DNA of 64,000 bases, taken from NCBI RefSeq assembly GCF_009914755.1, contig NC_060930.1; one strand, given 5' to 3'. The stretch comes from the human T2T-CHM13v2.0 reference genome, Homo sapiens. Of the stretch, positions 16,961 through 18,695 are shown piece by piece (position 1 is the stretch's first letter; every line of letters starts with the position of its first letter). A model generated the notes under the pieces. That model did no database searches and had not been told where the DNA came from. It was given only the letters and a program-made list of their open reading frames with translations. Made by a program: the position numbers and the translations under genes.

Positions 16961-17248
16961 GAATATAGTATTGTATACAACTAGGATGGGCTTAAACAGG
17001 ATGAAACTAAGGTTGGAAGGTAAACTAATCACACATAATATGCAGTTTTATGTACATTTTTGGAGCTCTCTGATGTTCGAGGCACTTAAGAAGTCATACA
17101 TAATATACATGTTATGTCAAATACTGTACCAGAGGAATAGAGGATTTGCATGTGATACAGACCAAAGGGTATCCAAGCAAGGGGACAGAAAGAATGGCCC
17201 TCAGGACAGAGGGAGCAGCAAGACCAGAGACACCAGAGCATGAACATG
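16961..17248 (+). repeat. Local direct repeat, copy 1 (288 bp)
   Basis: Nearly identical to 18409-18695; also visible as duplicated ORF peptides in the six-frame track. Confidence 0.97.
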
Positions 17249-17249
17249 C

Positions 17250-17830
17250 TTCCTAGATTTCCCAGGGAGAGGAATCGTTCCCTATCCTGGGGCATAGCAG
17301 CTGCAGGGAATGACAGGAGACGTGGCTGGAAAGCTGGGGCCAGATGGCGGAGACTCCTCAGCTCCACGTTAACAACGTGCTCCCTTGGCAAGCCGTACAG
17401 ATCCTTTGAAGGATTTTGAGCAGAGAAATGACAAGTTTATACTAGAAACAAGCAGCATGGAAGGTAGGCTGCCTGCATGGAGTCTGGAGGAGGAGAGCAG
17501 CGCAGAGAATAGTGTAAATTCTTCCTGCAAGTAGTATTGAGGAGGTACAAATGGGAGGATAGAACTGGATTTAAATAGTTTTCAGAGAGAAGAAAGTCAA
17601 GTGAAATAGGACAAAGAGTCCAAAGTCAGTCCGTGGTCTCCATTCGGAGAAAAAGGGCTTGGGAAAGAATATATGGAGTTTGGTTTTGAATGAGCCAAAA
17701 TTGAGGTACCGAAGAACATCCAGGTGGTGAAGCCTATAGGAGATTGGACATTTTTCATGTGATTCTTAGGACAGAAGCTGGCACTGAGACTAGAGATTGG
17801 GGTATCATTTGAATAAAGGTGAGAATTTTG
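17250..17830 (+). mobile_element. Degenerate L2 LINE fragment
   Basis: L2-like motifs (TTTGAAGGATTTTGAGCAGAGAAATGAC; GAACATCCAGGTGG; GAGACTAGAGATTGGGGTATCAT); approximate. Confidence 0.5.
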
Positions 17831-18142
17831 TCTTTATGTATAGAGTTCCTTAAGATTCTATCAGAATCCATGTCAAGATACAATTTTTCTGATTAAAATA
17901 ATTTCTTTTAAAACACTATAATGCAGAAACTTATGTGTAATTATTTTATGTTTTGTAGCCTTAATGTTACCGAACTTGTGTTAAATAAGTTTATCTTGTT
18001 TGGGTCACAACTTTTATTCCAGAGAAACGCAGTTCTTATTTTGATTTTGCCTTAATACTGATGATTTTTTTTTGAAGTTCTTTAATGTTAAGCATTTTCA
18101 GTGTGACTTTTAAAATTGCTTTCCTTAAAAGTGACTGTGAAA

Positions 18143-18211
18143 TTGCTAAGTAGGCTGAGATTGATGTCAGGTTATCCCCAAGCATAACCTCACTCTCACC
18201 TTGCTTTGCAG
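18143..18211 (+). ncRNA. MIR4639: MIR4639 precursor hairpin (5'-tailed mirtron-like), ending at the intron 2 acceptor AG
   Basis: TTGCTAAGTAGGCTGAGATTGA (5p) and TCACTCTCACCTTGCTTTGC (3p) match my recollection of miR-4639; inner stem AGGTTAT/ATAACCT is visible. Confidence 0.85.
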
Positions 18212-18397
18212 GCATATCTTTTTCTTGCACATCAAGGAGGCCCTCTTGGCAGGCCACCTCTTGTGTTCCCCAGAGCAGGCAGTGGAACTCAGTGCCCTCC
18301 TGGCCCAGACCAAGTTTGGAGACTACAACCAGAACACTGCCAAGTATAACTATGAGGAGCTCTGTGCCAAGGAGCTCTCCTCTGCCACCTTGAACAG
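18212..18397 (+). CDS. MYLIP: MYLIP exon 3 (186 nt, FERM F2)
   Basis: Acceptor [46 protein letters not shown]; donor CAG|GTGAGG. Confidence 0.97.
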
Positions 18398-18408
18398 GTG
18401 AGGCTGTT

Positions 18409-18695
18409 GAATATAGTATTGTTTACAACTAGAATAGGCTTAAACAGGATGAAACTAAGGTTGGAAGGTAAACTAATCACACATAATATGCAGTTTTATG
18501 TACATTTTTGAGCTCTCTGATGTTCGAGGCACTTAAGAAGTCATACATAATATACATGTTATGTCAAATACTGTACCAGAGGAATAGAGGATTTGCATGT
18601 GATACAGACCAAAGGGTATCCAAGCAAGGGGACAGAAAGAATGGCCATCAGGACAGAGGGAGCAGCAAGACCAGAGACACCAGAGCATGAACATG
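18409..18695 (+). repeat. Local direct repeat, copy 2 (287 bp)
   Basis: Matches 16961-17248 with about 4 substitutions and one 1-bp indel. Confidence 0.97.

What the first reader, a model, noticed from the sequence alone, without database searches (positions are those of the whole stretch)
16961..18695. Near-identical 288-bp direct repeats bracket the in-frame MYLIP exon 3 and MIR4639: a potential recombination cassette
Seen: 16961-17248 and 18409-18695 differ by about 4 substitutions and one 1-bp indel (~98%). They are offset by 1448 bp and are mostly not a recognisable common repeat. Copy 2 starts only 11 nt into intron 3. Between them lie exon 3 (186 nt, phase 2-2, so frame-preserving) and the whole MIR4639 hairpin. 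Inference: unequal crossover or single-strand annealing would cleanly delete or tandem-duplicate exon 3 plus the miRNA. That would give an in-frame IDOL lacking or doubling ~62 aa of the FERM F2 lobe, which could alter LDLR degradation. The 3' end of copy 1 appears to run on into L2-like sequence while copy 2 does not, suggesting copy 2 is the derived, recent insertion.
Basis: partly seen in the sequence, partly recalled or inferred. Interest (0 to 1): 0.8.

Follow-up and report, generated by a model that had tools for sequence, protein, structure and literature searches.

The report
Small intronic duplication flanking MYLIP exon 3
A 292-base piece of MYLIP intron 2 was copied into intron 3 just past exon 3, probably millions of years ago, leaving two near-identical direct repeats around the exon and a microRNA; this looks like an ordinary, probably silent duplication that is only a weak substrate for deleting or doubling the exon.

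Summary
Copy 1 (16957-17248) and copy 2 (18405-18695) differ by 5 substitutions and one 1-bp indel. These are the only two matches in the 3.1-Gb assembly and the only long repeat of 95% identity or more in the window.

Exon 3 (186 nt, phase 2-2, part of FERM_M) and MIR4639 lie between the copies. Removing or doubling exon 3 keeps the reading frame.

Copy 2 is probably the derived copy. The last ~84 nt of copy 1 match an ancient high-copy interspersed element, which I recall as LINE-2. That element continues collinearly past 17248 to about 17828. Copy 2 stops in the middle of it. This support is moderate, because some profile tests were not significant.

Divergence of 1.7% suggests an age of roughly 9-17 My, with a wide interval.

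The likeliest origin is a templated insertion by template switching. The "recombination cassette" idea is architecturally correct but untested. The longest identical tract is 137 nt, below the classical meiotic threshold. Two searches, seen as listings and abstract openings only, turned up no paper about such an allele. Interest is low.

The parts
16957..17248 (+). Repeat copy 1 (292 nt) in MYLIP intron 2; the inferred source copy
   Evidence: Its last ~84 nt (17165-17248) align to the consensus of an ancient interspersed family. GC is 34% in the first 200 nt and 53% in the last 92 nt.
18405..18695 (+).
   Evidence: The sequence after 18695 shows no family homology (control: 711 of 1000 shuffles reach the observed score) and no similarity to the spacer.
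17165..17828 (+). Ancient high-copy interspersed element (recalled as the LINE-2 3' region; the name was not tested). It begins inside copy 1 and runs past its end.
   Evidence: The 28-mer at 17406-17433 has 71 genomic matches at 3 or fewer mismatches, against 0 for the reversed control. Profile hit 17333-17439, E 2.7e-10. Block 17165-17216 was reached by 1-3 of 1000 shuffles and by 8 of 1704 real windows. With the 28-mer masked, the downstream profile hits 17651-17828 at E 3.5e-4.
17249..18404 (+). 1156-nt spacer between the copies. This stretch plus one repeat unit would be lost or doubled by recombination between the copies.
   Evidence: Coordinates; contents checked.
18143..18211 (+). MIR4639 hairpin; its 3' end abuts the exon 3 acceptor
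   Evidence: Annotation given with the finding. The fold of 18135-18215 is -23.7 kcal/mol, z -2.18. No Rfam match in 16500-19200.
18212..18397 (+). MYLIP exon 3: 186 nt, phase 2-2, codons 93-155, part of the FERM central (F2) domain
   Evidence: for the arithmetic and splice sites. Pfam FERM_M, E 3.7e-9, profile positions 13-50 of 112.

Best explanation
This is a real, two-copy, local dispersed duplication. A 292-nt stretch of MYLIP intron 2 was copied about 1.45 kb downstream, in the same orientation, into intron 3 just beyond the exon 3 splice donor (position +8 to +12). The stretch has an AT-rich 5' part of unassigned origin and, in its last ~84 nt, the start of an old LINE-like element.

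The likeliest mechanism is a single templated insertion. A nascent or broken DNA end switched back to the nearby template at a few bases of microhomology (TGT or TGTNG), copied about 290 nt, and switched forward again. This is the FoSTeS/MMBIR or synthesis-dependent repair type of event.

The event is old. Divergence of 1.7% points to roughly 9-17 My if gene conversion has not reset the clock.

Today both copies are most likely passive intronic DNA. Their only plausible activity is as a weak substrate for non-allelic homologous recombination or single-strand annealing. That would remove or double a 1447-1448-bp unit carrying exon 3 and MIR4639, in frame.

Shown here: the repeat, its uniqueness, the frame arithmetic and the domain content. 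Moderately supported: the polarity. Inferred: the copying mechanism, the age and the inertness.
For: Repeat and its uniqueness.

Polarity:
- The 28-mer at 17406-17433 belongs to a high-copy family: 71 matches (own place included) against 0 for the reversed control.
- I built a profile from all 42 other fetched loci (L009-L050; the own locus L008 was left out) and excised young repeats from them first.
- This profile hits 17333-17439 at E 2.7e-10.
- Its consensus aligns to 17165-17216, inside copy 1, at nodes 239-295. The score is 19 against a null of 11.6 +/- 1.5. It was reached by 1 of 1000 shuffles for 17100-17248, 2 of 1000 for 17100-17400 and 3 of 1000 for the whole of copy 1.
- Of 1704 real 149-nt windows from the 64 kb, 8 reach that score. 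One is the locus itself and 4 come from two evident family copies.
- The spacing to the motif is 243 nt in the window against 227 nodes in the consensus, so the blocks are collinear.
- With the 28-mer masked, a downstream profile has its best hit in the whole window at 17651-17828, on the + strand, E 3.5e-4.
- The stretch after copy 2 shows nothing (711 of 1000 shuffles).
- At 17200, the one polarisable difference, copy 1 carries the family consensus base and copy 2 the derived base.

Mechanism: no poly-A tail, terminal inverted repeats or clear target-site duplication are visible at the ends (by eye). The template lies 1.45 kb away, in cis and in the same orientation. Four of the 5 substitutions lie in the first 32 nt after the entry junction (permutation P 0.017). 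Replicative template switching is recalled to be error-prone near junctions.

Age.

Weak substrate: identical tracts are 137, 73 and 48 nt, compared with the thresholds quoted in PMC2583991 (passages).
Against: Polarity tests that failed:
- With the ascertained 28-mer masked, the refined upstream profile gave no hit with E below 1 (the cutoff used) at this locus in any of 6 rounds, while three other family copies in the window improved.
- The earlier, rougher profile gave only E 0.059.
- Short sub-profiles over the boundary ranked the locus 6th (E 40) and 10th (E 21). Those sub-profiles also barely detected the evident family copies, so they have little power.
- The copy-1 boundary at 17248 itself lies in an 83-nt stretch (17217-17299) that aligns to no family block. 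Continuity therefore rests on the collinearity of the blocks on either side.

Other weaknesses:
- The family name LINE-2 is recalled. No repeat library was available.
- No empty-site allele or outgroup was available, so microhomology, age and mechanism are inferred.
- The clustering of differences at the 5' end could equally mean gene conversion of the 3' 260 nt, which would make the event older.
- The clustering statistic weakens if position 16960 is assigned to the target rather than to the copy.
Confidence: 0.7

Rival explanations
1. The duplication is much older, and the 3' ~260 nt have been kept alike by interlocus gene conversion. The 1.7% divergence then underestimates the age, and the copies are actively exchanging sequence.
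For: Differences are unevenly spread. Four of 5 substitutions fall in the first 32 nt, against 1 in the remaining 260 nt (P 0.017). The copies are only 1.45 kb apart and in direct orientation.
Against: There are only 5 substitutions, and one of the clustered ones (16960) may belong to the junction. The same pattern fits error-prone synthesis just after a template switch. No outgroup was available to test this.
Confidence: 0.15
2. A two-step origin: tandem duplication of the 1448-bp unit (repeat plus spacer, which would have doubled exon 3), followed by a deletion that removed the second spacer and some of intron 3.
For: The junction 18404|16957 is exactly what a tandem duplication of 16957-18404 would create.
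Against: This needs two events, or one complex event. Nothing after 18695 resembles the spacer. An intermediate with a doubled exon 3 would have had to persist.
Confidence: 0.08
3. The pair is an active recombination cassette. Deletion or duplication alleles of exon 3 plus MIR4639 arise recurrently and segregate in humans, changing IDOL activity.
For: The repeats are direct, 98% identical and 1.45 kb apart. The products are in frame at 383 and 507 aa. Exon 3 is part of FERM_M. Closeness of repeats lowers the homology needed (PMC2583991 passages).
Against: The longest identical tract is 137 nt, against a meiotic minimum of 300-500 bp. The unit totals 292 nt. The pair has survived an estimated several million years. 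Neither search, judged from titles and abstract openings, returned a paper about such an allele; those searches cover open-access text only, not variant catalogues.
Confidence: 0.06
4. Copy 1 is the derived copy, or the second copy is an assembly artefact.
For: No positive evidence. Neither reads nor other assemblies could be examined.
Against: If copy 1 were inserted, it would have had to land by chance directly upstream of, collinear with and in the orientation of the rest of the same old element. The copies differ at 6 positions and have unique, unalignable flanks, which argues against an assembly collapse or expansion error.
Confidence: 0.03

Closest known systems
Templated insertions and local dispersed duplications from replicative template switching (FoSTeS/MMBIR); mechanism described in PMC2583991 passages, further details recalled
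   Same: A short segment is copied from a template about 1.45 kb away in cis, in the same orientation. There are no transposon hallmarks. A few bases of possible microhomology sit at the entry junction, and differences cluster just after it.
   Different: This is an old event carried in the reference assembly, not a patient or tumour rearrangement. No pre-insertion allele was available, so the junction microhomology cannot be verified.
Alu-Alu-mediated exon deletions and duplications (repeat-mediated NAHR between ~300-bp elements; PMC2583991 passages)
   Same: Direct repeats of about 300 bp sit in the introns on either side of an exon. Crossover would delete or double the exon.
   Different: The unit is not an Alu and not a dispersed family, with only 2 places in the genome. 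The pair is about 98% identical, which I recall to be higher than typical Alu pairs. It is a single pair, and no recombinant allele is known from my searches.
Low-copy repeats / segmental duplications that drive recurrent NAHR (for example CMT1A-REP, cited in PMC2583991)
   Same: Paralogous direct repeats of high identity flank dosage-relevant sequence.
   Different: The unit is 292 nt and the longest identical tract is 137 nt. That is far below the conventional 1-kb definition (recalled) and below the quoted meiotic minimum of 300-500 bp.
Single-strand annealing between direct repeats after a break in the spacer (recalled from the DNA repair literature)
   Same: Two direct repeats about 290 nt long are separated by a 1156-nt spacer. 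Annealing would leave one hybrid repeat and delete the spacer.
   Different: This would be a somatic, break-dependent outcome. Nothing was tested here, and mismatches reduce its efficiency (recalled).

Membership tests
Segmental duplication / low-copy repeat | Length of at least 1 kb (conventional definition, recalled) | tested here: not met
   The unit is 292/291 nt, and the flanks do not align.
Segmental duplication / low-copy repeat | Identity of at least 90% | tested here: met
   97.9% over 292 aligned columns.
Copies of an interspersed transposable-element family | Many dispersed copies in the genome | tested here: not met
   The whole unit matches only 2 of 2 scored places, both at this locus; searches agree. 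Caveat: the tool misses copies diverged by about 30%. The last ~84 nt do belong to an old family.
Copies of an interspersed transposable-element family | Insertion hallmarks at the ends of the unit (poly-A tail, terminal inverted repeats, target-site duplication) | tested here: not met
   None was seen on reading the junctions. At most a 2-nt ambiguity is present.
Tandem duplication | Head-to-tail adjacency of the copies | tested here: not met
   A 1156-nt unique spacer separates the copies. The sequence after copy 2 is unlike the spacer.
Templated insertion by template switching (FoSTeS/MMBIR type) | Template close by in cis | tested here: met
   The source lies 1448 nt upstream in the same orientation.
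Templated insertion by template switching (FoSTeS/MMBIR type) | Microhomology at both junctions relative to the empty site | tested here: inconclusive
   TGTAG against TGTTG at the 5' junction allows 3-5 nt. No empty-site sequence is available in these tools.
Templated insertion by template switching (FoSTeS/MMBIR type) | Excess of point changes next to a junction | tested here: inconclusive
   Four of 5 substitutions lie in the first 32 nt, permutation P 0.017. They cannot be polarised, and gene conversion explains the pattern equally well.
NAHR substrate | Direct orientation and high identity | tested here: met
NAHR substrate | An uninterrupted identical tract at least as long as the minimal efficient processing segment | tested here: not met
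   The longest tract is 137 nt. The human meiotic minimum is 300-500 bp, and mitotic recombination falls 20-fold between 232 and 134 bp (PMC2583991 passages). The same passages note that close repeats can recombine with under 50 bp.
NAHR substrate | Observed recombinant (deletion or duplication) alleles | not testable with these tools
   No variant catalogue or second human assembly was available. The literature searches, judged from titles and abstract openings, returned no paper about such an allele.
LINE-2 (name recalled) for 17165-17828 | Belongs to a high-copy, ancient, collinear repeat family | tested here: met
   71 matches against 0 for the control motif. Profile hits at E 2.7e-10 and, with the motif masked, E 3.5e-4. 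Block test.
LINE-2 (name recalled) for 17165-17828 | Match to the curated LINE-2 consensus | not testable with these tools
   No Dfam or RepeatMasker library is held. The family name rests on my recollection only.

The most novel reading that the evidence does not exclude
The two repeats do recombine at a low rate in the human germline or soma. In that case rare 1.45-kb deletion or duplication alleles exist that remove or double exon 3 and MIR4639. They would yield an IDOL protein with half of its FERM F2 lobe missing or doubled, and would measurably change LDL-receptor degradation and LDL cholesterol in carriers.
Probability: 0.06. Interest if true: 0.5.

Novelty: new member of a known kind. 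Interest (0 to 1): 0.15.

Why it matters
MYLIP/IDOL drives LDL-receptor degradation (recalled), so an in-frame structural allele of its FERM domain could bear on lipid genetics. The identical stretches could also confuse short-read mapping or variant calling next to exon 3. As it stands, this is one of many small old intrachromosomal duplications in human introns, and nothing suggests activity. Its practical value is as a precise place to query in structural-variant catalogues and as a dated marker for primate comparisons.

Tried and rejected
Steps that led nowhere:
- Pairwise searches for relatives of the stretch after copy 1 found nothing beyond a ~35-nt motif. These were BLASTN in the window, whole-assembly DNA searches, nhmmer in the window, and nhmmer and BLASTN against 29 family loci.
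- The first family profiles were contaminated by young Alu-like insertions in the fetched loci and hit many unrelated places. I discarded them after masking.
- The high score of the first profile at the locus came mostly from the motif used to choose the loci. It vanished when that motif was masked.
- Sub-profiles across the 17248 boundary were not significant and had little power.
- The refined upstream profile gave no hit with E below 1 (the cutoff used) at the locus once the motif was masked.
- Rfam found nothing in 16500-19200.

Literature (search listings and abstract starts only, unless stated):
- MYLIP + exon 3 + deletion gave 4 papers and MYLIP + structural variant gave 7. By their titles and abstract openings, none is about this allele.
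- miR-4639 + mirtron gave 6 reviews. The one whose passages I read (PMC10270766) mentions miR-4639-5p only in connection with DJ-1 and Parkinson's disease.

Origins considered and rejected:
- Retroposition or transposon insertion, because no hallmarks are present.
- Simple tandem duplication, because of the spacer.
- Chance similarity.

Full report
**1. Observation**

- The repeat finder reports 17058-17248 / 18505-18695 (191 nt, 99%) and 16957-17062 / 18405-18510 (106 nt, 96%), offset by 1447 and 1448 nt.
- A gapped alignment with 60-nt flanks shows one unit of 292 nt against one of 291 nt. The flanks on both sides do not align.
- The unit matches only these two places in the 3.1-Gb assembly. 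It has no other relative in the window.
- It is the only long repeat of 95% identity or more in the 64 kb. The other repeat families there are 60-86% alike.
- The whole-assembly tool is word-based and misses copies about 30% diverged, so "unique" applies to close copies only.

**2. What lies between the copies**

- By the supplied annotation, the 1156-nt spacer (17249-18404) holds MIR4639 (18143-18211) and exon 3 (18212-18397).
- Exon 3 has AG and GT splice sites, is 186 nt long, starts and ends in phase 2, and touches codons 93-155 of a 445-aa product.
- Leaving exon 3 out gives 383 aa without a stop. Doubling it gives 507 aa without a stop.
- Exon by exon, Pfam finds FERM_N in exon 2, FERM_M positions 13-50 of 112 in exon 3, FERM_M positions 78-112 in exon 4 (22.6 bits, just under the 23.8-bit curated cut-off) and a RING finger in exon 6.
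That is just outside the positions that pair with U1 (the last point is recalled).

**3. Which copy is the source**

No mammalian orthologues are held, so I tested whether an older repeat runs across a copy boundary.

Evidence that it does:
- A 28-mer at 17406-17433 has 71 matches in the assembly at 3 or fewer mismatches (its own place included). The reversed control has 0. A degenerate form gives 24 against 0. This marks a high-copy ancient family. I recognise it from memory as the LINE-2 3' region, but no repeat library was available to confirm the name.
- Pairwise comparison with 29 family loci found only the motif itself.
- I therefore built profiles from all 42 other fetched loci (L009-L050; the own locus L008 was left out).
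- The first profiles were contaminated by young Alu-like insertions. After excising these, realigning and running six rounds of refinement, the profile hits 17333-17439 at E 2.7e-10. Most of that score comes from the motif used to select the loci.
- The profile consensus aligns locally to 17165-17216, inside copy 1, at nodes 239-295. The score is 19 against a shuffle null of 11.6 +/- 1.5. It was reached by 1 of 1000 shuffles for 17100-17248, by 2 of 1000 for 17100-17400 and by 3 of 1000 for the whole of copy 1.
- Of 1704 real 149-nt windows from the 64 kb (both strands), 8 reach that score. One is the locus itself and four come from two evident family copies.
- A second block, 17300-17344, aligns to nodes 332-379 (reached by 24 of 1000 shuffles).
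- The distance from the first block to the motif is 243 nt in the window and 227 nodes in the consensus.
- With the motif masked, a downstream profile has its best hit in the whole window at 17651-17828 on the same strand, E 3.5e-4.
- The 300 nt after copy 2 show nothing (711 of 1000 shuffles reach the score).

Evidence against, or tests that failed:
- With the motif masked, the rough profile gave E 0.059 at the locus.
- The refined upstream profile gave no hit with E below 1 (the cutoff used) in any of the six rounds.
- Short sub-profiles ranked the locus 6th and 10th, at E 40 and E 21. They detected the evident family copies hardly better, so they have little power.
- The boundary at 17248 itself lies in an 83-nt stretch that matches no block.

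Taken together, an old element starts inside copy 1 at or before 17165 and continues collinearly to about 17828. Copy 2 carries only its first ~84 nt and then stops. Copy 1 is therefore in its original context and copy 2 is derived. I rate this moderately well supported.

One further detail fits this. At 17200, the only difference that falls in an aligned block, copy 1 has the family's consensus base and copy 2 the changed one.

**4. How copy 2 arose (inferred)**

- The unit has no poly-A tail, no terminal inverted repeats and no clear target-site duplication (by eye).
- Its template lies 1.45 kb upstream in the same orientation.
- The entry junction allows 3-5 nt of microhomology (TGTAG against TGTTG).
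- Four of the five substitutions lie within 32 nt of that junction (permutation P 0.017).
- These features fit a templated insertion by template switching during replication or break repair, with error-prone synthesis just after the switch.
- The same clustering would also arise if gene conversion had recently homogenised the 3' 260 nt.
- A tandem duplication of the 1448-bp unit followed by a deletion cannot be excluded. It needs more steps, and nothing after 18695 resembles the spacer.

**5. Age**

- Five substitutions in 291 sites give K = 1.74%.
- That corresponds to 8.7 My at 1.0e-9 per site per year or 17.4 My at 0.5e-9 (both rates recalled).
- The Poisson interval spans 2.8 to 41 My across both rates.
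- This assumes no gene conversion.

**6. What it does now**

- The copies are most likely inert.
- Direct repeats in flanking introns have no known role at the RNA level (recalled).
- At the DNA level, crossover or annealing between the copies would delete or double 1447-1448 nt carrying exon 3 and MIR4639.
- The identical tracts are only 137, 73 and 48 nt long.
- Passages of PMC2583991 state three relevant points. Mitotic recombination fell 20-fold when uninterrupted homology dropped from 232 to 134 bp. The human meiotic minimum appears to be 300-500 bp. Closely spaced repeats, such as those of alpha-globin, can recombine with under 50 bp.
- The pair is therefore a weak but not impossible substrate.
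- Neither full-text search, judged from listings and abstract openings only, returned a paper on a MYLIP exon-3 structural allele. Variant catalogues, other human assemblies and raw reads were not available.

**7. Verdict**

- This is a new but ordinary example of a small, old, local dispersed duplication.
- The cassette idea remains a low-probability hypothesis that can be tested directly.

Noticed in passing
window 18135-18215: The MIR4639 hairpin ends exactly at the exon 3 acceptor AG, and its 3' arm pairs up to the splice site. This is the layout of a 5'-tailed mirtron, where splicing rather than Drosha would define the 3' end. The fold is -23.7 kcal/mol, z -2.18. There was no Rfam match. 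The one review whose passages I read does not discuss its biogenesis.
   Followed up: partly
window 33541-34067 (-), 41595-41756 (+), 29243-29587 (+): Three other copies of the same ancient interspersed family (recalled as LINE-2) lie in the window. The refined profile detects them at E 1e-5 to 6e-10.
   Followed up: partly
window ~19009-19100: A common interspersed repeat begins about 310 nt after copy 2. Of 40 scored genomic matches (from 686 candidates), 38 fall on this stretch at 79-93% identity. The family was not identified.
   Followed up: no
window 42020-42167 and 42340-42487: A pair of 148-nt direct repeats, 83% identical and 320 nt apart.
   Followed up: no
window 17217-17299 and 17440-17650: Relative to the family consensus, this old element copy has about 47 extra nt between its first two aligned blocks. 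It is also about 115 nt shorter between the motif and the downstream block. Part of 17201-17231 looks like a second, weaker match to the same consensus block as 17172-17204, which may be a small ancient internal duplication.
   Followed up: no
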